From the NCBI GenBank assembly GCA_035708525.1, contig DASSSH010000026.1, positions 478-64,477 on the forward strand: a stretch of DNA of 64,000 nt, in the 5' to 3' direction. Below the pieces are notes generated by a model. The model did not search any database, was not told the origin of the DNA, and saw only the letters and a list, made by a program, of their open reading frames with translations. The DNA comes from Candidatus Methylomirabilota bacterium (lineage in GTDB: Bacteria > Methylomirabilota > Methylomirabilia > Rokubacteriales > CSP1-6). Positions 1 through 52,328 of the stretch are shown piece after piece; position 1 is the first letter of the stretch; every line of letters begins with the position of its first letter. The position numbers were made by a program, and so were the translations under genes.

Positions 1-252
1 CTTTACGAAAAAGGCCATACCTTGCTCTCGGTCTTCATGGTCCCGGCCTCGGCGGCCGGCACCGAGCTGACGGGCAAGCGCGTTCCGTATGGGGGTCGCG
101 AGTACATCACGGCGGAGCGCAAGGGCTACCGCACGGTGTCGTGGACCGATGGGCAGACGGTCTACGGACTGGTGTCTCTCCTCGACTACGATGCTCTGCT
201 CGAGTGTGCCGATCGGCTCCGCGCTGAACGCGCACGCGAAGCGCGGCTGTAG
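1..252 (+). CDS. anti-sigma factor, C-terminal fragment (5' end lies outside the window)
   Basis: Frame 1 is open from the window edge to TAG 250-252. The motif GYRTVSWTDGQTVYGLVSLLDYDALLECADRL resembles the C-terminal end of zf-HC2/ChrR-type anti-sigma factors. Confidence 0.5.
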   Translation, partial: LYEKGHTLLSVFMVPASAAGTELTGKRVPYGGREYITAERKGYRTVSWTDGQTVYGLVSLLDYDALLECADRLRAERAREARL

Positions 253-262
253 CAGTTGCCCG

Positions 263-1366
263 ATGGGGGCTCGGCTCGCGCGGCTCGGGCTCTTGGCGGT
301 GTTGGGCTGCCTGGCCGCCGTCGACAGCTCCCATGCCGGGGCCTTGCGGACCGACCTCAGCAAGGCCTTGGTCCCGTTGGACGAGATCGTCTCGGGCGGC
401 CCTCCCCCCGATGGCATTCCTGCGATCGATCGGCCGAGCTTCGTGACACTGGCCGCGGCCGATGCCTGGCTCAAGCCCAAGGAGCCGGTGGTGGCGCTTG
501 AGATCAGCGGCGACGCCCGGGCCTACCCCCTCCAGATTCTCATGTGGCACGAGATCGTCAACGACACGGTGGGCGGCAGGCCCGTCACCGTCACCTACTG
601 CCCGCTCTGCAACTCGGGGCTCGTCTTCGACCGCGTCGTGGGTGGCGTCACGCTCGACTTCGGCACCTCGGGCAAGCTCTACAAGAGCGATCTGGTCATG
701 TACGATCGGCAGAGTCATTCGCTCTGGGCCCAGATGGAGGGCCGGGCCATCGTCGGTGAGCGGGCGGGGACGCGTCTGGGCCTGATTCCCGCCAACACCG
801 TCGCCTACGAGGATTTCAAGGCGATCTATCCGGGTGGGAAGGTGTTGTCCCGGGAGACGGGCCACGCACGCTCCTACGGACGCAACCCCTATGAGGCCTA
901 CGACCGCCCCGATTCGTCCCCCTTCCTCCTGCAAGGCACGGCCGACCGGCGGCGCCCGCCCAAGGAGCGTGTGGTGGGGGTCCTCATGAGCGGGATGCCC
1001 CGGGCCTATCCGTGGTCGGTGCTCGAGAAGCAGGGCGTACTCCATGACACACTGGGCGGTGAGCCGCTGGTGATCTTCCATCGTCCAGGTGCGCTGTCCG
1101 CGCTGGATGATTCGCGCATGGAACAGTCCCGCGCGATCGGCGCTACGGCCGTGTTCAGCTCTGTGCTGGCTGGCAAGCTACTGACCTTCGAGCGGGTGGC
1201 CGATGGATTCCGCGACAAACAGACCAGCAGCCTCTGGAGCCTGCTGGGCTACGCGACCAAGGGTCCGCTGGCCGGCAAGCGGCTTAAACCGATCCAGCAC
1301 GTGGATGCGTTCTGGTTCGCCTGGGCCGCGTTCAACCCCGCGACCTCGGTCTACGTCACACCGTGA
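263..1366 (+). CDS. DUF3179 domain-containing secreted protein
   Basis: ATG 263 gives the signal peptide MGARLARLGLLAVLGCLAAVDSSHA. DUF3179 motifs are present: DGIPAIDRPSF, YPLQILMWHEIVNDTVGG, VTYCPLCNSG and SGKLYKSDLVMYDRQSHSLW. Confidence 0.85.
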   Translation: MGARLARLGLLAVLGCLAAVDSSHAGALRTDLSKALVPLDEIVSGGPPPDGIPAIDRPSFVTLAAADAWLKPKEPVVALEISGDARAYPLQILMWHEIVNDTVGGRPVTVTYCPLCNSGLVFDRVVGGVTLDFGTSGKLYKSDLVMYDRQSHSLWAQMEGRAIVGERAGTRLGLIPANTVAYEDFKAIYPGGKVLSRETGHARSYGRNPYEAYDRPDSSPFLLQGTADRRRPPKERVVGVLMSGMPRAYPWSVLEKQGVLHDTLGGEPLVIFHRPGALSALDDSRMEQSRAIGATAVFSSVLAGKLLTFERVADGFRDKQTSSLWSLLGYATKGPLAGKRLKPIQHVDAFWFAWAAFNPATSVYVTP

Positions 1367-1956
1367 CCGCCCTCGAGGAGCTCGCCGCCCTGCTCGCAGA
1401 GCTCGAGCGGGCGCGCACATCCATCATGGCCCTGGCGCGTGGCAACTGCGCGCAGGAGCCCTGGAGGCTCTATCCGGGCGAATACGGGATCTTCGACCGC
1501 AAGACGCATAGCCAGTTCTACTACCACTCGCACGAAGGTGCCCGGCACGAGGCCGGCCACTTTCACACTGTCCGCCTCTTCACCGATCGCTCGGTGCATC
1601 TGGTGGCCATCTCCATGGCCGAGACCGGCTGGCCGCAGGCGCTGTTCACCGTCAACGGTTGGGCCATCGGTGACGCCTGGGAACCACCGGAGACGCTCAA
1701 GCAATACATTCGCCGATTCCACATCGGGCCGGGCCGAGGGCCCGCGCCACTGGTCCGGTTCATCAACCTGATGTTTGAGGCCTTCACCCTCGAAATGGAG
1801 CAGCTTCAGGACGACAAGGAGCGTGTGCTGCGGGCTTACTGCGCCGCCCATCCGGGGAAGGATCCCCTCCAAGACTGGTCGCTGGAGATCCTGAGCCGGG
1901 TCGAGATCGACATGAAGGCCCGTCTCGCCGGGCCGGCAGAAGTGGTCAGGCCTTGA
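1363..1956 (+). CDS. hypothetical protein with a His-rich motif (YYHSHEGARHEAGHFH), possibly metal-binding
   Basis: The GTG start overlaps the upstream stop (GTGA at 1363-1366). Third-position GC is coding-like. The protein sits between the DUF3179 gene and the TlpA-like gene, with overlapping junctions on both sides. Confidence 0.65.
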   Translation: MTALEELAALLAELERARTSIMALARGNCAQEPWRLYPGEYGIFDRKTHSQFYYHSHEGARHEAGHFHTVRLFTDRSVHLVAISMAETGWPQALFTVNGWAIGDAWEPPETLKQYIRRFHIGPGRGPAPLVRFINLMFEAFTLEMEQLQDDKERVLRAYCAAHPGKDPLQDWSLEILSRVEIDMKARLAGPAEVVRP

Positions 1957-2516
1957 TCCGCGCACGGATCCTCGCCGTGCTCGTCGGGGTGGTCGCGCTC
2001 GGCGGGGTCTTGCAAGTGGCCGCCGTGGGCCCGGATCCGACGCTCGGGGCGGATCTCTGGCGGGTCGCAGGCATCGCGCGGGCCGGTCGCCAGGTCGCCG
2101 CGCCGTCGTTCCAGCTGCAGGATATCGCCGGGAACCGGGTCGAGCTGCGCCAGCTCCGCGGGCGAATCGTGCTGGTCTACTTCTGGGGCTCGTGGTGACC
2201 GCACTGCACGAGGGAGTTGCCCTCGGTGGATGGGCTGCACGAGAAGCTGGCGCGAGAAGGGCTCACCGTTCTCCTCGTGAACATCGGGGAGACCCGTGAG
2301 ACCGTGGTCCGGGCCCTGGCGTCGCGCCGCTACACAGCCCCCGTGTTCCTCGACTCGAACGGCAAGACCAGCGAGTCCTATCGCGTCGCAGGCACCCCCA
2401 CGGTGTTCATCATCGGTCGGGACGGGATGATCCTCGGGAGTGCCGTGGGCCCTGGCCCCTGGGCGGAACCGGCCGGGCGCGCGCTGCTCGAAGCGCTGCT
2501 CCGCGGTCGAACGTAA
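1953..2516 (+). CDS. TlpA/ResA-like thiol:disulfide oxidoreductase, selenocysteine-containing (UGA 2196-2198 read as Sec)
   Basis: ORFs 1953..2198 and 2217..2516 are in the same frame. The junction reads VLVYFWGSW-[TGA]-PHC-TRELPSV, the thioredoxin-fold WCxxC site. There is an N-terminal membrane anchor and a C-terminal AGTPTVFIIGRDG motif. The TTG start overlaps the upstream TGA (TTGA). Confidence 0.8.
2204..2229 (+). promoter_or_regulatory. putative bacterial SECIS hairpin for UGA 2196
   Basis: CGAGGG-AGUUG-CCCUCG at 2209-2225. It can be extended by 4 pairs with a bulged A at 2208. The loop A lies 19 nt from the U of UGA. Confidence 0.6.
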
Positions 2517-4987: not shown

Positions 4988-5410
4988 ATGGGACGAGATG
5001 GCCTGCTGATCGGTGAGGTGGCGAAGCAGAGCGGCGCAAGCCGGAAGGCGCTGCGGCTGTATGAGACCGCGGGTATCCTTCCCGCTCCCCGCCGCACCGG
5101 GGCGGGCTATCGCGTGTACGGAGCCGACACGCTGGCGCTCCTCTCGTTCGTCCGGCGGGCGCAGCGACTCGGCTTCTCCCTGGAGGAGATCAAGGAGATC
5201 GTCGCCATCCGGCGAGCGGGACGCGCTCCATGCCCTCACGTCCGTGAGCTTGTCCGACGGAAGACCGAGGAACTCGACCGGCGGCTCACGGACCTGATGG
5301 AGGTGCGTGCTGGCCTTCGAGCCCTGGTGAAGGGCTGGCGCTCTTCGGGGCAGGGCCGCGCGGCGGTCTGCCCGCACATCGAGCGCGGCACTGGTCAGAG
5401 GGGGAGGTGA
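4988..5410 (+). CDS. MerR family (heavy-metal/CueR-like) transcriptional regulator
   Basis: N-terminal HTH LIGEVAKQSGASRKALRLYETAGILP..R...GYR.Y, a coiled-coil dimerisation helix, and two CPH motifs (APCPHV, VCPHIE). Confidence 0.9.
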   Translation: MGRDGLLIGEVAKQSGASRKALRLYETAGILPAPRRTGAGYRVYGADTLALLSFVRRAQRLGFSLEEIKEIVAIRRAGRAPCPHVRELVRRKTEELDRRLTDLMEVRAGLRALVKGWRSSGQGRAAVCPHIERGTGQRGR

Positions 5411-5754: not shown

Positions 5755-5985
5755 TCAGCACCGACCTCCAACGTCCCGCGCGGGTCACCGGTCGAAGAGG
5801 CCGGTGGCCCGCAGGTCGTTTCAGGCCTGGGGTTGGCCCATCGCGTAAAATGCCTTCACCGCGGCCGCGGCCCGGCGCAGAGGTGGCCAAGGCCAGGGCC
5901 TGTGGGAATAAGTCGCCGAGGAGCTGTGTTATGTGTGTTGGTGTACACGCCGGGCGGCCCCCGGAAGACGAGAAAGGAGCCGAGA

Positions 5986-6480
5986 ATGGCGAGAGCGGGA
6001 AATCGAATCCTCGACAGCGGCGAGGTGCTGCCGACAATCGCCATGGACACCGTTGCCCATGAGCGAATCAGCGCGCCAGAGTGCTTCGGAAGCGGCTGGG
6101 GGGTCTTCCTCATCTACCGCGCCCACTGGTGACCATACTGCAAGCAGCAGTTAGCTGCCTTCGAGCGTGCGCTGCCAAAACTCCAGGATGAAGGGATTAC
6201 CGTCGTAGGGGCGTCCACTGACGCGCTGGAAAAGGCCAAAGAGACAGTAAGAGAACACGCCCTCTCCTTCCCCATCGGCTATGGGCTCCCGCTCCGAGAG
6301 ACTGCGGCAACCCTAGGCACGTTCTACGAGGAGCGCCGAGGCATCTTGCAGTCTACCGGGTTCTTGATCAAGCCGGACAAGACGATCGCGGTCGCGCAGT
6401 ACAGCTCAGGACCCATCGGTCGCTTGGTCTGGCAGGACGTCCTCGGTCTGGTTCAGTTCTATAAGAAGCAGGCGAAATAG
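5986..6480 (+). CDS. peroxiredoxin-like (AhpC/TSA, PRX-like2-type) selenoprotein (UGA 6130-6132 read as Sec)
   Basis: A GAAAGGAG RBS precedes ATG 5986. The junction reads GVFLIYRAHW-[TGA]-PYC-KQQLAAFERALPKLQDEGITVVGASTD. The frame then stays open for 115 more codons to TAG 6478-6480 (…FPIGYGLP…SGPIGRL…). The downstream half is absent from the ORF track because it has no start codon. Confidence 0.8.
6142..6161 (+). promoter_or_regulatory. putative bacterial SECIS hairpin for UGA 6130
   Basis: AAGCAGC-AGUUA-GCUGC(C)UU, a stem with a bulged C. The loop A at 6149 lies 19 nt from the U of UGA. Confidence 0.55.
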
Positions 6481-6517: not shown

Positions 6518-6862
6518 ATGACCGCGATGGAGTGGGACTGCTGCCGGCACGGGGAAGAGACCCGTCTGACGTTTCAGTTCGCAGGTCGATCGGGGTCGGT
6601 TCGCAAATGCTGGTGGTGTGCGCTCGTGCACCCGCCCATGCTCTGGCGGTCCGTGAAGATTGGGCTTGTGGTAGGGAGCGTTCTGGCCGCCATCAACCAT
6701 GGCGGCGTCCTGGTGAGTGGCGAGCTGACCTCTGGCGTAGCCTGGAAGATCGGGTTGACCTATCTAGTGCCCTTTGTCGTGGCAACGTGGAGCGCCCTCG
6801 CGGCGAGTCGGATCTCCTCCGTCGCCGAGCCACGCGGTCGAGGCTCGGGTCCGGGCACATAA
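6518..6862 (+). CDS. NrtS-like (nitrate/nitrite transporter NrtS family) small membrane protein with a Cys-rich N-terminal extension
   Basis: The core LWRSVKIGLVVGSVLAAINHGGVLVSGELTSGVAWKIGLTYLVPFVVATWSAL matches NrtS-family sequences. The N-terminus carries CC..H and CWWC. Confidence 0.65.
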   Translation: MTAMEWDCCRHGEETRLTFQFAGRSGSVRKCWWCALVHPPMLWRSVKIGLVVGSVLAAINHGGVLVSGELTSGVAWKIGLTYLVPFVVATWSALAASRISSVAEPRGRGSGPGT

Positions 6863-6958: not shown

Positions 6959-7441
6959 ATGCGACGCGGACTGATCGCGGCAGTCCTCTTGGGCCTGGGC
7001 GCGACCGTGAGCTGGGCCGCGACGCCGGCCCCGACCTTCATCTTGCCCCTCATCCAGGGCGGTAAGGTGTTCGATTCCAAAGCCGAGATCGGCAGGCGGG
7101 TCCTGGTTGTCCGCTTCCAGGCCTCCTGGTGACCCACCTGCGTGCAGGAGTCTCCTGCATTCGAGAAAGCCTACCGGAAGTACAAGACGCGTGGCGTCGA
7201 GTTCGTGGGCGTCCAGGTGCAGGACGAGGAGGCTGACGCCCGGCGGTTCCTCAAGGCTCACCAGGCGACCTATCCCGCAGGGCTCGATCCCGATCTGGCT
7301 ATCGCCAAGCGCTTCGGCTACACAGCGACGCCTCTGACCGTCATCATTGACCGTCAGGGCAACATCGCCGCGCGCCAGTTCGGGCCGGCGGACGACACCT
7401 GGATCGCCGCCCACCTCGCCCCGTTGCTCAAGCCCAAGTAG
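6959..7441 (+). CDS. TlpA-like periplasmic thiol:disulfide oxidoreductase, selenocysteine-containing (UGA 7130-7132 read as Sec)
   Basis: AAAGGAGG RBS, then the signal peptide MRRGLIAAVLLGLGATVSWA. The junction reads RVLVVRFQASW-[TGA]-PTC-VQESPAFEKAYRKYKTRGVEFVGVQVQD. ORFs 6905..7132 and 7142..7441 are in the same frame. Confidence 0.8.
7142..7160 (+). promoter_or_regulatory. putative bacterial SECIS hairpin for UGA 7130
   Basis: UGCAGG-AGUCU-CCUGCA at 7143-7159. The loop A at 7149 lies 19 nt from the U of UGA. Confidence 0.6.
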
Positions 7442-47973: not shown

Positions 47974-49860
47974 TTACCGGACGGGCGTTGCGGCTGCCTC
48001 CTCGACGCCCAGCTCGGCCAGCTTGGTCGCCGTGGGCCGCCCGGTCTCGGGGTCCCAGCCGGCCATCTCGTAGTAGGTCCGGCGCGCCGCGAGGAACTCC
48101 GCGGGGTCGATCCGCTGCCCCTGGAGCGCGCCGTTGCCGATTCCCTCGTGCAGCCGCTGGGGCAGGAGATCGTCGGCGGGCGTGAAGCCCTCACGGCAGT
48201 TGAACAGCCGCGCGAGCGTGTTGTTCCGCTCACCCACCTTCATGAGCTCGTACAGGCTCATGTTCCAGCCCGTGACCGCGTTGATGTAGGCGACCATCGG
48301 CTCGAGCTCGAGCCCGTTGAGCGGAGTGCCGACGAAGTCGCACATGCCGACCGAGTTGTAGGCGCTCCAGACCTTCTGGGTTTCGAAGAAGGCCCGGACC
48401 TTCTTGGCGTCGAGCACCAGCGGGTCGAGGGGCTCGATAAGGCCCAGCGCCCCCAGCGGGTGCCCCTGCGGGTGGAAGCCCGCGTAGAGCGGGTCGTGAG
48501 GCGCCTCCATGTGATCGGCGCCCGTGGGCGACAGCGCGTAGGCCAGGGAGAGGCCCTTCTTGCCCCGCGGGTCGTGCATGGGCAGCTCCTGCCCCTTGAC
48601 GTGCAGCGCGAAGCGCTCGGCGCCCTTGCCGAGCTTGGCGGCGGCGCGCTTGACACCCTCGCCCAGCAGCTCGCCGATGCCCTCGCGCGTGCCGATGCGA
48701 TGGACCATCTGCACGACCGCCTCGGCGTTGCCCCATGTGAGGTCGATGCCACCGGTCATCTCCTTGGTGATGATGCCGTGCTCGTAGCACTCCATGGCGA
48801 AGGCGATGACGGCACCGGTCGAGATCGAGTCCAGCACGTACTGGGCGTAGAGCTGGTTGATCAGCGCAAGGGCGTTCAGGTCGCTGACGCCGCAGAGCGA
48901 GCCCGATGCCGCCAGCGTCTCGTACTCGGGCCCGCCGTACTTCGGGGTCACGCCCAGCTCCTTGACCTCCACCTCGCGCTTGCACGCCACGGCGCAGGCG
49001 TAGCACGTGCCGCGGTTGACGAGGATGGTGTCGCGCATCGTCTGGCCGCTGATCGCGCGGGCGCCCTCGAAGGAGCCGTCCCGGAAGTTGCGCGTCGGCA
49101 GGATCCCGCTAGCGTCGAGCGCCAGCACGGCGCTGGAGGAGCCGAGCTGGTGGAAGCGGTCCTTGGCCCGGTCGTAGTGCTCGCGGAACCAGACCAGCTG
49201 GCCCTTGGCCCGCTCCTTGTCCATGGCCACGGGCGGCTTCGTGCCGCGCACGACGACGGCCTTGAGGCGCTTCGCGCCCATCACGGCGCCGAGCCCGCCC
49301 CGTCCGTGGAAATGCTTGAGCTGGTTCACGATGGCCGCGAACCGCACGCCGCGCTCCCCGGCGACGCCCGTCTGCAGCACGCGGACGCGCTTGTCGCCTA
49401 GCTCCTGCTCGATCCCGTCCTGCACCTCACCGGAGAGCTGGCCCCAGTAGGCGGTGGCGTCGCGGAACTCGACCTTGTCGTCCTTGATCCAGAGGTAGAC
49501 GGGGGTCTTCGACGCCCCGCGGATGACGAGCCCGTCCCAGCCGGCCGCCCGCAACTCCGGGCCCCACCAGCCGCCCGCTTCCGACTCGCCGTAGCCGCCG
49601 GTGAGCGGGGACTTCGCGGCCGCCGTGTACCGGTTGGTGCCCGACAGCGACAACCCGTTGATGATGCTGGTCGTGAAGACCAGCACGTTGTCCGGACCCA
49701 GAGGATCCACGCCGGCCGGCATGTCGCGCAGCAGGATCCACGCGGCCAGCGCCCCGCCGCCCAGATACTTCCGCGTCACCGTCTCGGGGACTTCCTCCGT
49801 GCGGGTCTGACGCGTGGTCAGGTCGACGTGCAGGAGCTTCGCCGTGATGCCGGATGCCAT
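47974..49860 (-). CDS. aldehyde:ferredoxin oxidoreductase family (tungstopterin enzyme)
   Basis: The N-terminus LLHVDLTTRQTRTEEVPE...YLGGGALAAWIL, TGGYGESEAGGWWG and 628-aa length are typical of AOR. Confidence 0.9.
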   Translation of the reverse strand: MASGITAKLLHVDLTTRQTRTEEVPETVTRKYLGGGALAAWILLRDMPAGVDPLGPDNVLVFTTSIINGLSLSGTNRYTAAAKSPLTGGYGESEAGGWWGPELRAAGWDGLVIRGASKTPVYLWIKDDKVEFRDATAYWGQLSGEVQDGIEQELGDKRVRVLQTGVAGERGVRFAAIVNQLKHFHGRGGLGAVMGAKRLKAVVVRGTKPPVAMDKERAKGQLVWFREHYDRAKDRFHQLGSSSAVLALDASGILPTRNFRDGSFEGARAISGQTMRDTILVNRGTCYACAVACKREVEVKELGVTPKYGGPEYETLAASGSLCGVSDLNALALINQLYAQYVLDSISTGAVIAFAMECYEHGIITKEMTGGIDLTWGNAEAVVQMVHRIGTREGIGELLGEGVKRAAAKLGKGAERFALHVKGQELPMHDPRGKKGLSLAYALSPTGADHMEAPHDPLYAGFHPQGHPLGALGLIEPLDPLVLDAKKVRAFFETQKVWSAYNSVGMCDFVGTPLNGLELEPMVAYINAVTGWNMSLYELMKVGERNNTLARLFNCREGFTPADDLLPQRLHEGIGNGALQGQRIDPAEFLAARRTYYEMAGWDPETGRPTATKLAELGVEEAAATPVR

Positions 49861-49878
49861 CGTGATGATCTCCTTTCG

Positions 49879-51306
49879 CTACGTCCGTGGCGTGCGAGGC
49901 GTCCGCCGCGCGACCCCGGTCCGCACCGCCGCCTCGGCGACGGCGCCGGAAACCGCGGGCACGACCCGGGAGTCGAACATCGACGGCGTGATGTACTCCT
50001 CGCTCAACTCGCTGTCCGATACGATGCTGGCCAGGGCGTGGGCCGCCGCCAGCTTCATGTCGTCGTTGACCCGGCGCGCGCGGACGTCGAGCAGGCCGCG
50101 GAAGAACCCCGGGAAGCAGCAAGAGTTGTTGATCTGGTTCGGGTAGTCCGAGCGGCCGGTGGCCATGACCCGCACGTAAGGCCCCGCCTCCTCGGGCATG
50201 ATCTCCGGCGTCGGGTTGGCCATGGCGAACACGATCGGGTCGCGGTTCATGGCCTGGATGTCCTTCAGCGACACGACGCCGGGGCCACTCAGGCCGACAA
50301 AGACATCGGCGCCCTTGAGCGCGTCGCCGGCCGAGCCCCGCAGCCGCTCGGGGTTGGTGTGCTCCGCGAACCACTGCTTCATGGAGTTCATGTTGTCGGT
50401 CCGGCCCGCGTAGATGGCGCCGGCCCGGTCGCACCCGATGATGTGGCGGGCCACTTCCAGCATCAGCAGCTTGGCGGTCGCGATGCCCGAGGCACCAGCC
50501 CCCGTGAACACGATCTTCGCGTCGCCCAGCTTCTTGCCCACGACCTTGAGCGCGTTGAGCAGCGCGGCGAGGACCACCACGGCCGTGCCGTGCTGGTCGT
50601 CGTGGAAGACGGGAATGTCGAGGTCCTTCTGGAGACGCTCCTCGATCTCGAAGCAGCGAGGCGCGGAGATGTCCTCGAGGTTGATGCCGCCGAACACCGG
50701 GGCGATGGCTTTGACCGTGGCGACGATCTCGTCGACGTTCTTCGTGTTGAGGCAGATCGGGAACGCGTCCACCCCCGCGAAGTCCTTGAAGATGAGGGCC
50801 TTGCCTTCCATGACCGGCTGGGCACCGTTGGGCCCGATGTCGCCCAGGCCCAGCACGGCGGTGCCGTCCGAGACGACGGCGACCGTGTTCTGCTTGATGG
50901 TCAGCGTGTAGGCCTTTTCGGGATCGTGGTGGATGGCCATGCAGACGCGCGCCACGCCGGGCGTGTAGGCCATGCTGAGATCGTCGCGAGTCTTGACCGG
51001 CACCCGGCCCCGAACCTCGATCTTGCCGCCCAGGTGCATGAGGAAGGTGCGATCCGAGACGTTGACGACCGTGACACCCTCCAGCGTCCGCAGGTGGGCA
51101 GTGATCCGCTCACCGTGCTTCTCATCGCTCGACTTGAAGGTGATGTCACGAATGACGACGTCGCGGCCGGCCTCGACGATGTCGATGGCGCCGATGTCCC
51201 CGCCCTCGTCCCCGATCGCGGAGGTGACTTTTCCCAGCATTCCGGGCTTGTTGGCGATGCGGACCCTGACGGTGAGGCTGTAGCTGGCGACTGGGGCATT
51301 GGTCAT
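49879..51306 (-). CDS. NAD(P)-dependent malic enzyme with an N-terminal ACT domain
   Basis: LSMAYTPGVARVC, VVSDGTAVLGLGDIG, FTGAGASGIA, FAMANPTPEI. Confidence 0.9.
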   Translation of the reverse strand: MTNAPVASYSLTVRVRIANKPGMLGKVTSAIGDEGGDIGAIDIVEAGRDVVIRDITFKSSDEKHGERITAHLRTLEGVTVVNVSDRTFLMHLGGKIEVRGRVPVKTRDDLSMAYTPGVARVCMAIHHDPEKAYTLTIKQNTVAVVSDGTAVLGLGDIGPNGAQPVMEGKALIFKDFAGVDAFPICLNTKNVDEIVATVKAIAPVFGGINLEDISAPRCFEIEERLQKDLDIPVFHDDQHGTAVVVLAALLNALKVVGKKLGDAKIVFTGAGASGIATAKLLMLEVARHIIGCDRAGAIYAGRTDNMNSMKQWFAEHTNPERLRGSAGDALKGADVFVGLSGPGVVSLKDIQAMNRDPIVFAMANPTPEIMPEEAGPYVRVMATGRSDYPNQINNSCCFPGFFRGLLDVRARRVNDDMKLAAAHALASIVSDSELSEEYITPSMFDSRVVPAVSGAVAEAAVRTGVARRTPRTPRT

Positions 51307-51470: not shown

Positions 51471-51635
51471 TCAGGCCGACCGCCGCCGGCGCGAGCCCTT
51501 TCCCTGCTTCACGTGCTTGAAGAACTCGATCTGCCGGAGCCGGCGCTCGGCCTCGGCGCGCGTGTCGTAGGACCCGAAGCTGCGCCCGGTCTTCTCCGAG
51601 AGAACCACGTACTTCCCGCCGCGCTTTCTGATCAT
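51471..51635 (-). CDS. small basic hypothetical protein (54 aa)
   Basis: [40 protein letters not shown]. The ATG overlaps the msrA stop (ATGA at 51632-51635). Confidence 0.45.
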
Positions 51636-52279
51636 GTCGTCACACCCGTCGGGCAGCGGAGGCCGGTGCCGCCGATGCCGCAATAGCCCCAGGGGTTCTT
51701 GGCCAGGTACTGCTGGTGGTAATCCTCGGCGTAGTGGAACTCCGGCGCCTCCCTGATCTCGGTGGTAATGGCGCCGAAGCCGCCATCGCTCAGCACGCGC
51801 TGGAAGGCGCGCCGCGAAGCCTCGGCGGCCTGGCGCTGGGCGTCGCCGTAGCAATAGATGGCCGAGCGGTATTGGGTGCCGGTGTCGTTGCCCTGGCGCA
51901 TGCCCTGGGTCGGGTCGTGGCTTTCCCAGAACACGCGCAGCAGGTCCTCGTAGGCGACCTTGTCCGGATCGAAGACGACCCGGACGCCCTCGGCGTGGCC
52001 CGTGAGGCCGCTGCACACTTCCTCGTAGGTGGGATTGGGCGTGAGTCCGCCCGCATATCCCACCGCGGTCGAGTAGACGCCGGGCAGCTCCCAGAATTTC
52101 CGCTCCGCTCCCCAGAAACAGCCCATCCCGAACAAGGCCAGCGCCGTTCCCTCAGGGAAGGGTGGCTCGAGGCGGGCGCCGCTCACGAAATGAGCGGCCG
52201 GGACCCGAACGCGCTCGGCCCGTCCGGGGAGCGCGTCGGCCGGCGAGGGGAGCGCGGCCTTCTTCGAGCGGAGCCACAT
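51632..52279 (-). CDS. msrA: peptide-methionine (S)-S-oxide reductase
   Basis: SPADALPGR...GMGCFWGAE...[23 protein letters not shown] chose the start [20 protein letters not shown] by analogy with E. coli [19 protein letters not shown]. Confidence 0.9.
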
Positions 52280-52328
52280 GGGGGGCACCTCCACCGGCGA
52301 GTATACCAGGCCCATCGAGCCGCGTGGG

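What the first reader, a model, noticed from the sequence alone, without database searches (positions are those of the whole stretch)
5986..6480. Peroxiredoxin-like gene hidden from the ORF track: RAHW-U-PYC followed by 115 open codons
ORF 5833..6132 ends at TGA 6130-6132, directly after the sequence FLIYRAHW. The same frame then stays open to TAG 6478-6480. It encodes PYCKQQLAAFERALPKLQDEGITVVGASTD...FPIGYGLP...SGPIGRL. This is the remainder of a PRX-like2/AhpC-TSA protein whose Cys forms read RGHWCPYC. The downstream 115 codons have no start codon, so the ORF track does not list them. The hairpin AAGCAGC-AGUUA-GCUGC(C)UU lies 9 nt after the UGA. ATG 5986 has a GAAAGGAG RBS.
Basis: partly seen in the sequence, partly recalled or inferred. 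Interest (0 to 1): 0.8.

Follow-up and report, generated by a model that had tools for sequence, protein, structure and literature searches.

The report
Selenocysteine redox gene split by TGA
A 164-codon gene for a peroxiredoxin-like redox protein carries an in-frame TGA that almost certainly encodes selenocysteine, so gene finders cut it in two; this kind of selenoprotein is already known, so the result mainly corrects annotation.

Summary
ATG 5986 to TAG 6480 (+) is one reading frame interrupted only by TGA 6130-6132. With U read as C, the 164-aa product matches Pfam AhpC/TSA across the TGA (E 5.8e-18).

- **Conservation:** of 81 related gene copies, 62 keep TGA at this column. They come from Rokubacteria/Methylomirabilota, Nitrospinota, Entotheonella and Binatia MAGs. 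The other 19, more distant, have TGC/TGT.
- **Selection:** both halves are under purifying selection in the same frame.
- **Position of Sec:** it replaces the first Cys of a CxxC motif (U49-P-Y-C52). C52 aligns with the peroxiredoxin peroxidatic Cys, and the Prx Thr and Arg are absent.
- **SECIS:** Codons +4 to +8 are the only stretch of the gene with almost no synonymous variation.
- **Neighbours:** two nearby redoxin genes (TGA 2196, TGA 7130) have the same UxxC arrangement and the same hairpin geometry with different stems.
- **Not shown:** no Sec machinery lies in the window.

UxxC Prx-like selenoproteins are a known kind, so this is a new member. Public databases mostly hold it as 109-aa fragments.

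The parts
5972..5979 (+). Shine-Dalgarno-like GAAAGGAG, 6 nt upstream of the start codon
   Evidence: Read directly from the sequence.
5986..6480 (+). Complete coding sequence of the Prx-like (AhpC/TSA, PRX_like2-type) selenoprotein: 164 codons including Sec49, plus the TAG stop
   Evidence: Translation. Pfam AhpC-TSA 65.5 bits, E 5.8e-18, residues 12-135. 80 related loci match across the TGA. pN/pS is 0.35 upstream and 0.25 downstream of the TGA.
6130..6132 (+). In-frame TGA, predicted Sec49 (first position of the U-P-Y-C redox motif)
   Evidence: TGA in 62 of 81 homologous gene copies and TGC/TGT in 19. The column is Cys in most full-length distant homologues.
6139..6141 (+). TGC, Cys52: second residue of the UxxC motif, aligned with the peroxidatic Cys of peroxiredoxins
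   Evidence: Profile alignment to PDB peroxiredoxins. At least 90% conserved in the family alignment.
6142..6161 (+). Predicted bacterial SECIS hairpin: AA-GCAGC (6142-6148), loop AGUUA (6149-6153), GCUGC (6154-6158), bulged C6159, UU (6160-6161)
   Evidence: Core hairpin -7.8 kcal/mol; the 45-nt MFE structure (-9.9) has the same apical loop. Codons +4..+8 are the only ones of 89 degenerate conserved codons with zero or near-zero synonymous variation in 23 orthologues. Pair 14/30 occurs as A-U, U-A and G-C. The same geometry follows the two other UxxC TGAs in the window. It is present in 24 of 24 Rokubacteria-clade Sec forms and 0 of 19 Cys forms.
6137..6151 (+). Overlapping alternative hairpin ACUGC-AAGCA-GCAGU; mutually exclusive with the SECIS hairpin and of uncertain relevance
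   Evidence: 91% of cells are paired across 29 sequences but no pair changes on both sides. It does not explain the invariant GCT codon.
4988..5410 (+). MerR-family regulator gene upstream, same strand; a link to the selenoprotein gene is not shown
   Evidence: Pfam MerR/MerR-DNA-bind. The same arrangement occurs in L081, a contig encoding the identical 48-aa N-terminal fragment. Among 80 related loci only one distant MerR match was found, about 5.6 kb from the gene in L002.
1953..2516 (+). Context: second UxxC selenoprotein candidate. TlpA-like, membrane-anchored, TGA 2196-2198 (WGSW-U-PHC); hairpin CGAGGG 2209-2214, loop AGUUG 2215-2219, CCCUCG 2220-2225
   Evidence: Pfam AhpC-TSA 2.3e-24 across the TGA. 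W*PHC orthologues in L004, L008 and L027; Cys form in L011.
6959..7441 (+). Context: third UxxC selenoprotein candidate. Secreted TlpA/ResA-like redoxin, TGA 7130-7132 (QASW-U-PTC); hairpin GUGCAGG 7142-7148, loop AGUCU 7149-7153, CCUGCAU 7154-7160
   Evidence: Pfam Redoxin 1.4e-24 across the TGA.

Best explanation
Positions 5986-6480 are a single gene for a 164-residue cytoplasmic thioredoxin-fold protein of the AhpC/TSA superfamily (PRX_like2 type). Codon 49, UGA 6130-6132, is decoded as selenocysteine. While the ribosome approaches the UGA, the mRNA hairpin at 6142-6161 acts as a bacterial SECIS. Its 5-bp G+C-rich stem presents the loop AGUUA 16 nt after the UGA. The hairpin recruits SelB-GTP-Sec-tRNA(Sec), which outcompetes release factor 2. 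The product carries a U49-P-Y-C52 redox centre at the start of helix alpha-1. By analogy with CxxC and UxxC thioredoxin-fold enzymes, Sec49 is the attacking nucleophile and Cys52 resolves the intermediate as a selenenylsulfide, which a cellular reductant then recycles. Shown here: one frame, homology across the UGA, the Cys/Sec column, conservation of the UGA, an RNA-level constraint on the hairpin, and the same element at two neighbouring UxxC genes. Inferred: SelB-dependent decoding, the roles of U49 and C52, and the substrate (disulfide or hydroperoxide).
For: Single frame, with the Pfam AhpC-TSA match spanning the TGA. tblastn matches span query residues 1-164 in most of 80 loci. TGA is at the same column in 62 gene copies from several phyla, and TGC/TGT in 19 more distant ones. 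Distant full-length homologues read YRGxWCPxC. pN/pS is 0.35 and 0.25 for the parts before and after the TGA. TGA is otherwise the ordinary and commonest stop here, ending 34 of 57 predicted genes, so the code is not reassigned. The hairpin satisfies the bSECIS model quoted in PMC13188914: loop 5 nt, stem 5-7 bp, G at loop position 2 followed by U, 16-nt spacing, -7.8 to -9.9 kcal/mol. Synonymous variation vanishes only at codons +4..+8. TTG is used in 22 of 23 and GCT in 23 of 23 sequences, although other Leu and Ala codons in the gene vary freely. The pattern TGA-N16-(stem of at least 5 bp)-AGUNN hits only the three UxxC TGAs in the 64-kb window (0.09 expected). In 1.6 Mb of related loci it hits only 29 sites, all at U-xx-C columns. 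The hairpin is absent from all 19 Cys forms. A database protein with W at this column is in fact a TGA. A Methylomirabilota MAG has been reported to hold 63 selenoprotein genes (PMC13188914).
Against: No selA, selB, selD or tRNA-Sec gene lies in the window, and the rest of the genome could not be examined. Rfam gives no SECIS match. Single-sequence folding of 61 nt is not better than shuffles (z = +0.82). Covariation in the stem is thin, with one pair showing three Watson-Crick types, because the region also encodes the conserved KQQLA. An overlapping alternative hairpin is equally compatible with the sequences. The Nitrospinota-type orthologues keep the TGA but show no equivalent hairpin. The SECIS pattern was defined from the three window sites before it was counted. 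There is no experimental evidence of selenium incorporation.
Confidence: 0.88

Rival explanations
1. The gene is a true selenoprotein, but it works as a peroxidase rather than a thiol-disulfide oxidoreductase. The UxxC centre would reduce hydroperoxides through a selenenic acid intermediate that Cys52 resolves. This rival differs from the best explanation only in the substrate.
For: The closest solved structures by sequence profile and by fold are peroxiredoxins (Prx6, AhpC, BCP). Cys52 sits in the peroxidatic-Cys column, and the family keeps the GR motif shared with Prx1/Prx6 types (GPIGRL aligned to EIGR/ELGRL).
Against: The Thr and the Arg of the Prx active site are missing: U49 replaces the Thr and S123 replaces the Arg. 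Sec sits in the N-terminal CxxC position typical of thioredoxin-like disulfide exchange. ResA-type disulfide oxidoreductases score nearly as well.
Confidence: 0.3
2. UGA 6130 is read through or decoded as another amino acid (Trp, Cys or Gly) without the selenocysteine machinery.
For: No Sec machinery was seen in the window. One gene caller produced W at this column (P0001).
Against: TGA ends 34 of 57 predicted genes in the window, so it is a normal stop here. The TGA aligns specifically with a redox Cys. An RNA element with SECIS geometry is under selection directly downstream and recurs at two other UxxC TGAs.
Confidence: 0.04
3. The gene is a pseudogene, or the TGA is a sequencing or assembly error, in an ordinary Cys-containing redoxin gene.
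For: A single base separates TGA from TGC/TGT. One related contig has TCA at this codon, and L020 has a second TGA next to it.
Against: The same TGA occurs in 62 independent assemblies from several phyla. Both halves are under purifying selection. About 117 of the 120 best database proteins are the matching C-terminal fragments, so the interruption is the rule and not an accident.
Confidence: 0.01
4. These are two separate genes: a 48-aa peptide ending at the TGA and an independent 109-aa C-terminal protein, as current gene calls have it.
For: Databases hold the 48-aa piece and 109-aa pieces starting at L/M-AAFE.
Against: In the window, the downstream frame has no start codon until TTG 6346. 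The AhpC/TSA domain is one fold that needs both parts. The 109-aa calls lack the CxxC centre. Their start codons are simply the Leu of KQQLAAF read as TTG/CTG.
Confidence: 0.01

Closest known systems
Prx-like thiol:disulfide oxidoreductase selenoproteins (PF00578, UxxC/UxxU; called 'Prx-like 1' in the GOS survey, PMC2398784; listed as 'predicted with high confidence' in PMC13188914)
   Same: AhpC/TSA domain; Sec at the first position of a UxxC motif; Cys homologues with CxxC; SECIS inside the coding region just after the UGA.
   Different: Direct homology to the family's reference sequence (WP_010940744.1) could not be tested. This subfamily (YRAHW-U-PYCKQQL ... SSGPIGRLVWQD) occurs in Methylomirabilota/Rokubacteria, Nitrospinota and Entotheonella MAGs. 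It has no specific NCBIfam model: the best hit is 30.8 bits against a cut-off of 170.
[quoted passage not shown]
   Same: A CxxC-type motif whose second Cys aligns with the Prx peroxidatic Cys; the Prx Thr and Arg are lacking (the definition of cd02970 is from my own knowledge).
   Different: The catalogued Sec form has UxxS, whereas this one has UxxC (U-P-Y-C). The CDD model itself could not be run here.
Peroxiredoxin PrxU / Sec-containing Prx (TxxU; NCBIfam NF040737)
   Same: AhpC/TSA fold and a Sec in the active-site loop.
   Different: Sec lies three residues later there, in the peroxidatic column that Cys52 occupies here. The score is 21.9 bits against a cut-off of 270. The Prx Thr and Arg are absent here.
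ResA/TlpA-type thiol-disulfide oxidoreductases, and their Sec forms ('Thiol-disulfide isomerase-like, cd02966, UxxC'; 'Redoxin family protein, PF08534, UxxC' in PMC13188914)
   Same: W-C/U-x-x-C motif at the start of helix alpha-1 of a thioredoxin fold; best NCBIfam hit; among the PDB matches.
   Different: Those proteins are exported or membrane-anchored. This one has no signal peptide. The two neighbouring genes (1953-2516 and 6959-7441) are the TlpA-like ones.
Bacterial SECIS consensus (bSECISearch model, quoted in PMC13188914)
   Same: Loop of 3-9 nt, stem of 4-16 bp, G in the first two loop positions followed by U, 16-37 nt from the UGA, MFE of -7.5 kcal/mol or lower: all are met.
   Different: The spacing sits at the very lower limit (16 nt) and the core stem is only 5 bp. 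The loop AGU(U/C)N is shared by three different genes of this genome, which suggests a lineage-specific SelB preference (inference).

Membership tests
Bacterial selenoprotein gene (UGA recoded to Sec) | In-frame UGA inside a coding region that is conserved and under purifying selection on both sides, in one frame | tested here: met
   (pN/pS 0.35 upstream, 0.25 downstream).
Bacterial selenoprotein gene (UGA recoded to Sec) | The UGA aligns with Cys in homologues, and UGA-containing orthologues exist in other organisms | tested here: met
   62 TGA against 19 TGC/TGT at the same column. The column is Cys in most of 29 distant full-length homologues.
Bacterial selenoprotein gene (UGA recoded to Sec) | Downstream stem-loop that fits the bSECIS model (loop 3-9 nt, stem 4-16 bp, G in loop positions 1-2, 16-37 nt spacing, MFE of -7.5 kcal/mol or lower) | tested here: met
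   Loop AGUUA, 5(+2) bp stem, 16-nt spacing, -7.8 to -9.9 kcal/mol (criteria). Synonymous-site constraint supports it.
Bacterial selenoprotein gene (UGA recoded to Sec) | selA, selB, selC (tRNA-Sec) and selD present in the same genome | not testable with these tools
   None was found in the 64-kb window (no tRNA; about 37 ORFs scanned with Pfam). The rest of the genome is not available. Indirect support comes from the two further UxxC TGAs in the window and from the literature on Methylomirabilota.
Bacterial selenoprotein gene (UGA recoded to Sec) | Selenium shown in the protein (75Se labelling or mass spectrometry) | not testable with these tools
   This needs an experiment.
Pfam AhpC/TSA (PF00578) | Score above the family's gathering threshold | tested here: met
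   65.5 bits against 26; residues 12-135 cover profile positions 2-122 of 124.
Peroxiredoxin proper (catalytic PxxxTxxC plus a conserved Arg) | Cys in the peroxidatic column | tested here: met
   Cys52 aligns with the Cys of the TPVC motif in 6q5v and 5xbs.
Peroxiredoxin proper (catalytic PxxxTxxC plus a conserved Arg) | Thr (or Ser) three residues before the peroxidatic Cys, and Pro at the start of the motif | tested here: not met
   Sec/Cys49 occupies the Thr column and Arg45 occupies the Pro column.
Peroxiredoxin proper (catalytic PxxxTxxC plus a conserved Arg) | Conserved active-site Arg before the FIID strand | tested here: not met
   The Arg of 'TVRAVFIID' aligns with S123 of 'LQSTGFLIKPD'.
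PRX_like2 (CDD cd02970) | CxxC motif whose second Cys corresponds to the Prx peroxidatic Cys, with the other two catalytic-triad residues absent (definition from my own knowledge) | tested here: met
   alignment. A score against the CDD model itself was not obtainable.
Prx-like thiol:disulfide oxidoreductase selenoprotein family (PF00578, UxxC) | PF00578 domain with Sec in a UxxC motif | tested here: met
   the family is described in PMC2398784 and PMC13188914.
Prx-like thiol:disulfide oxidoreductase selenoprotein family (PF00578, UxxC) | Close homology to the reference member WP_010940744.1 | not tested
   The reference sequence was not retrievable with these tools.
PrxU (NCBIfam NF040737) and SelL-related redox protein (NF040769) | Score above the curated cut-off | tested here: not met
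   21.9 bits against 270, and 21.3 bits against 120.

The most novel reading that the evidence does not exclude
This is a distinct, uncatalogued selenoprotein subfamily (PRX_like2-type, U-P-Y-C) that is essentially Sec-only across Methylomirabilota/Rokubacteria, Nitrospinota, Entotheonella and Binatia. Public databases truncate it systematically. In the Rokubacteria lineage it is served by an unusually compact SECIS (5-bp stem, loop AGU starting exactly 17 nt after the UGA) that several unrelated selenoprotein genes share. That would define a lineage-specific SelB recognition rule, usable to mine what may be the largest bacterial selenoproteomes.
Probability: 0.35. Interest if true: 0.4.

Novelty: new member of a known kind. 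Interest (0 to 1): 0.3.

Why it matters
**Annotation.** The gene is missed or halved by standard gene finders. About 117 of the 120 closest database proteins are 108-115-aa C-terminal fragments lacking the active site, and GenBank names one of them 'redoxin domain-containing protein'. No NCBIfam model covers the subfamily. Recognising the Sec codon restores a complete redox enzyme.

**A practical search rule.** Together with the two neighbouring UxxC genes, the site gives a simple and specific SECIS rule for this lineage: TGA, 16 nt, a stem of at least 5 bp, and a loop AGUNN. The rule produced no hits outside U-xx-C TGAs in 1.6 Mb. It could help chart the selenoproteome of Rokubacteria/Methylomirabilota, a soil and groundwater phylum recently reported to hold a record number of selenoprotein genes.

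**Limits.** The finding does not change what is known about Sec biology.

Tried and rejected
- **Rfam:** the scans at gathering and at permissive thresholds found no SECIS family. This is uninformative, because bacterial SECIS elements are poorly covered.
- **Single-sequence folding:** folding 6130-6190 gave a different MFE structure and z = +0.82, so thermodynamics alone does not support the hairpin.
- **Alternative hairpin B (6137-6151):** it pairs in 91% of cells but shows no double changes and does not explain the invariant GCT codon. It is kept only as a possible alternative conformer.
- **Common SECIS in the Nitrospinota/Entotheonella clade:** neither RNAalifold nor a criteria-based enumeration found one.
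- **Conserved gene neighbours:** clustering ORFs within 4 kb of the gene in 78 loci gave no neighbour shared across the Rokubacteria clade; the synteny seen is only among closely related Nitrospinota genomes. The MerR gene upstream recurs only in L081, a contig with the identical 48-aa N-terminal fragment.
- **Sec machinery in the window:** none was found. An apparent selA/selB-sized gene pair at 47974-51306 is malic enzyme plus aldehyde:ferredoxin oxidoreductase.
- **AlphaFold model of P0001:** low confidence (pLDDT 60.9). Its Foldseek matches (peroxiredoxins and ResA, TM 0.55-0.67) are used only as weak support.
- **W and S at the Sec column in P0001 and P0002:** W is a mistranslated TGA; S is a real TCA.

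Full report
**1. The observation**

- The ORF listed as 5833..6132 ends at TGA 6130-6132, directly after FLIYRAHW.
- The same frame continues for 115 codons to TAG 6478-6480.
- In that downstream part, the ORF track's first start is TTG 6346, so the ORF rule lists only a 44-aa piece.
- ATG 5986 follows GAAAGGAG (5972-5979) at a 6-nt distance.
- The hairpin AAGCAGC-AGUUA-GCUGC(C)UU lies at 6142-6161.

An open frame behind a TGA is not remarkable in this 68% G+C DNA. A scan found 82 TGA sites with open, high-GC3 stretches on both sides. The significance has to come from homology and conservation.

**2. One gene, not two**

With the TGA read as Cys, the 164-aa product matches Pfam AhpC/TSA at 65.5 bits (E 5.8e-18). 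The match covers residues 12-135, so it runs straight across codon 49.

A scan of one genome per species returned 80 related loci, and the tblastn match covers query residues 1-164 in most of them. Reading the codon at the aligned column gave TGA in 62 gene copies and TGC/TGT in 19.
- **TGA forms:** these are the closest relatives (51-80% identity). They come from MAGs labelled Rokubacteria/Methylomirabilota, Nitrospinota, Tectomicrobia/Entotheonella, Binatia and Terriglobia, plus one 'Myxococcaceae' MAG.
- **Cys forms:** these are more distant (38-47% identity). They come from Gemmatimonadota, Myxococcota and Actinomycetota, and read NRGHWCPYC, NRGSWCPFC or YRGAWCPYC.

An exhaustive search of cluster representatives gave the same picture. 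Full-length relatives share YRGxWCPxC, and many further fragments of about 109 aa begin at residue 56-57.

Among 22 Rokubacteria-clade sequences, both halves evolve under purifying selection in this frame. The uncorrected pN/pS is 0.35 for codons 1-48 and 0.25 for codons 50-160. TGA is otherwise the commonest ordinary stop in the window, ending 34 of 57 predicted genes, so the genetic code is not reassigned.

These results exclude three readings: a pseudogene, a sequencing error, and two independent genes.

**3. Which residue the TGA replaces**

A profile of the family was aligned to solved peroxiredoxins. It places 'YRghwCpyC' against 'HPGDFTPVC'.
- The TGA column corresponds to the Thr of the Prx TxxC motif.
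- Cys52 corresponds to the peroxidatic Cys.
- Arg45 occupies the Pro column.
- The active-site Arg of Prx aligns with Ser123.

The protein is therefore not a peroxiredoxin proper. It fits what CDD calls PRX_like2, a thioredoxin-like CxxC protein on a Prx scaffold (that definition is from my own knowledge).

Sec sits at the N-terminal position of the CxxC motif, which is the attacking nucleophile in thioredoxin-fold enzymes. A low-confidence AlphaFold model (pLDDT 60.9) places position 49 just before helix 50-61. It matches peroxiredoxins and ResA at TM 0.55-0.67. No NCBIfam model reaches its cut-off; the best is ResA at 30.8 bits against 170.

**4. The recoding signal**

Folding the single sequence does not single out the hairpin (z = +0.82), and Rfam has no match. 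The comparative evidence is strong.

*Synonymous constraint.* In 23 Rokubacteria-clade orthologues, 89 conserved codons are degenerate. Only four show no synonymous variation at all: +4 AAG, +5 CAG, +6 CAG and +8 GCT. The codon between them, +7 Leu, is TTG in 22 sequences and TTA in the window. Other Leu and Ala codons of the same gene use four or five synonyms. These codons are exactly the hairpin.

*Stem variation.* Ala +9, whose third base is the bulge or mismatch position, varies freely. The outer pair (columns 14/30) occurs as A-U, as U-A (L017, AUG...GCA) and as G-C (marine Nitrospinaceae).

*Fit to the published model.* The element meets the bacterial SECIS criteria quoted in PMC13188914: a 5-nt loop, a 5-7 bp stem, G at loop position 2 followed by U, 16 nt between UGA and loop, and -7.8 kcal/mol for the core or -9.9 for the 45-nt context.

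*Sec forms versus Cys forms.* The hairpin is present in 24 of 24 Rokubacteria-clade Sec forms and in 0 of 19 Cys forms.

*An overlapping alternative.* Hairpin B (6137-6151) is also compatible with the sequences, but it does not explain the fixed GCT codon.

**5. Independent support inside the window**

Two further redoxin genes are split in the same way.
- **Gene 1953-2516:** TGA 2196-2198, motif WGSW-U-PHC, membrane-anchored, TlpA-like.
- **Gene 6959-7441:** TGA 7130-7132, motif QASW-U-PTC, with a signal peptide.

Both match Redoxin/AhpC-TSA across the TGA (E 1e-21 to 1e-24). The first has W*PHC orthologues in L004, L008 and L027 and a WCPHC form in L011.

Each TGA is followed, after exactly 16 nt, by a 5-nt loop AGU(U/C)N. 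The closing stems are unrelated in sequence: CGAGGG/CCCUCG, GCAGC/GCUGC and GUGCAGG/CCUGCAU.

Searching the pattern on both strands of the window returns these three sites and nothing else, against 0.09 expected from shuffles. In 1.6 Mb of related loci it returns 29 sites, all at U-xx-C TGAs. They include a compensated stem, GGAGGG/CCCUCC, in L004. The pattern was defined after seeing the three sites, so the window count is partly circular. The count in the other loci is the fairer test.

**6. What could not be shown**

- No tRNA-Sec, selA, selB or selD lies in the window, and the remaining genome was out of reach.
- The Nitrospinota/Entotheonella orthologues keep the TGA but have Leu-Thr instead of Leu-Ala and no comparable hairpin. 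I found no common SECIS for them.
- The substrate is unknown, and no neighbour is conserved across the Rokubacteria clade.

**7. Comparison with what is known**

UxxC selenoproteins with a PF00578 domain have been catalogued since the first bacterial selenoproteome surveys. They appear as 'Prx-like thiol:disulfide oxidoreductase', or as 'Prx-like 1' with 225 sequences in the GOS data (PMC2398784). They are listed in the 2026 review, together with a cd02970 'UxxS' form, TlpA-like (cd02966) forms and Redoxin (PF08534) UxxC forms (PMC13188914). The same review reports a Methylomirabilota MAG with 63 predicted selenoprotein genes.

The finding is therefore a new member, perhaps a new subfamily, of a known kind. 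What is practically new is twofold. First, this subfamily is almost always truncated in public protein sets. About 117 of the 120 best hits are fragments of 108-115 aa. One full-length entry carries W because its TGA was translated as Trp, and one carries a real TCA. The 48-aa N-terminal piece of the window's own gene is on record as a separate gene. Second, the lineage appears to use a compact and easily recognised SECIS.

**8. Verdict**

- **Observation:** confirmed.
- **Interpretation:** supported, with the correction that Sec occupies the first CxxC position and not the peroxidatic column.
- **Confidence that this is a Sec-encoding gene:** about 0.9.
- **Biochemical role:** a thioredoxin-like disulfide/selenenylsulfide exchange, possibly peroxide reduction. 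This part is inference.
- **Interest:** modest (0.3).
- **Novelty:** new member of a known kind.

Noticed in passing
window 1953-2516 (+), TGA 2196-2198: Second split selenoprotein candidate. It is a membrane-anchored TlpA-like redoxin with VYFWGSW-U-PHC and the hairpin CGAGGG-AGUUG-CCCUCG at 2209-2225. Pfam AhpC-TSA scores 2.3e-24 across the TGA. W*PHC orthologues occur in L004, L008 and L027, and a Cys form in L011. Its TTG start overlaps the stop of the upstream DUF6969 gene.
   Followed up: partly
window 6959-7441 (+), TGA 7130-7132: Third split selenoprotein candidate, 480 nt downstream of the finding. It is a secreted TlpA/ResA-like redoxin (signal peptide, RFQASW-U-PTC) with the hairpin GUGCAGG-AGUCU-CCUGCAU at 7142-7160. 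Pfam Redoxin scores 1.4e-24 across the TGA. The ORF track shows only its 99-aa C-terminal part (7142-7441).
   Followed up: partly
window 2196, 6130 and 7130; loci L004:3069, L008:7166(-), L027:9381, L070:516: The rule 'TGA, 16 nt, stem of at least 5 bp, loop AGUNN' hits only U-xx-C TGAs. It gives 3 of 3 hits in the window and 29 of 29 in 1.6 Mb of related loci. It looks like a lineage-specific SECIS signature.
   Followed up: yes
window 89-1366 (+) and 1363-1956 (+): A DUF3179 protein (Cys form, TYCPLC) and a DUF6969 protein sit directly upstream of the TlpA-like Sec gene. DUF3179 is itself listed as a selenoprotein family (UxxC/T) in PMC13188914. Homologues of the DUF3179, DUF6969 and TlpA-like proteins recur, in varying combinations, in Rokubacteria/Methylomirabilota loci (L004, L008, L010, L012, L014, L015, L017, L027).
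   Followed up: partly
window 6518-6862 (+): A 114-aa predicted membrane protein lies between two selenoprotein genes. It has Cys-rich N-terminal motifs (WDCCRHG, CWWCAL) and no Pfam match. Homologues lie next to the Prx-like gene in L008 and L015.
   Followed up: no
loci L025-L061 (Nitrospinota, Entotheonella): These orthologues keep the in-frame TGA but lack the AGUUG hairpin (Leu-Thr replaces Leu-Ala). No common SECIS could be found for this clade.
   Followed up: partly
L020:2291-2296: Tandem TGA TGA (YRGH**PYC): the Trp codon before the Sec codon is also TGA. This could be a pseudogene, a sequencing error or a second recoded codon.
   Followed up: no
L083:456-458 (P0002) and L082:745-747 (P0001): P0002 has TCA (Ser) at the Sec column and an intact SECIS sequence. 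P0001's 'W' is a TGA translated with a TGA=Trp table.
   Followed up: yes
L004 (second hit, frame 1), L070, L027: One Rokubacteria MAG carries a partial second copy and an apparently frameshifted paralogue that still has the TGA and the hairpin. L027 is frameshifted in the middle of the gene.
   Followed up: no
window 51632-52315 (-) and 47974-49860 (-): MsrA (Cys form; MsrA is a selenoprotein in some bacteria) and an aldehyde:ferredoxin oxidoreductase. The gene pair at 47974-51306 has selB/selA-like sizes but is aldehyde:ferredoxin oxidoreductase plus malic enzyme.
   Followed up: yes
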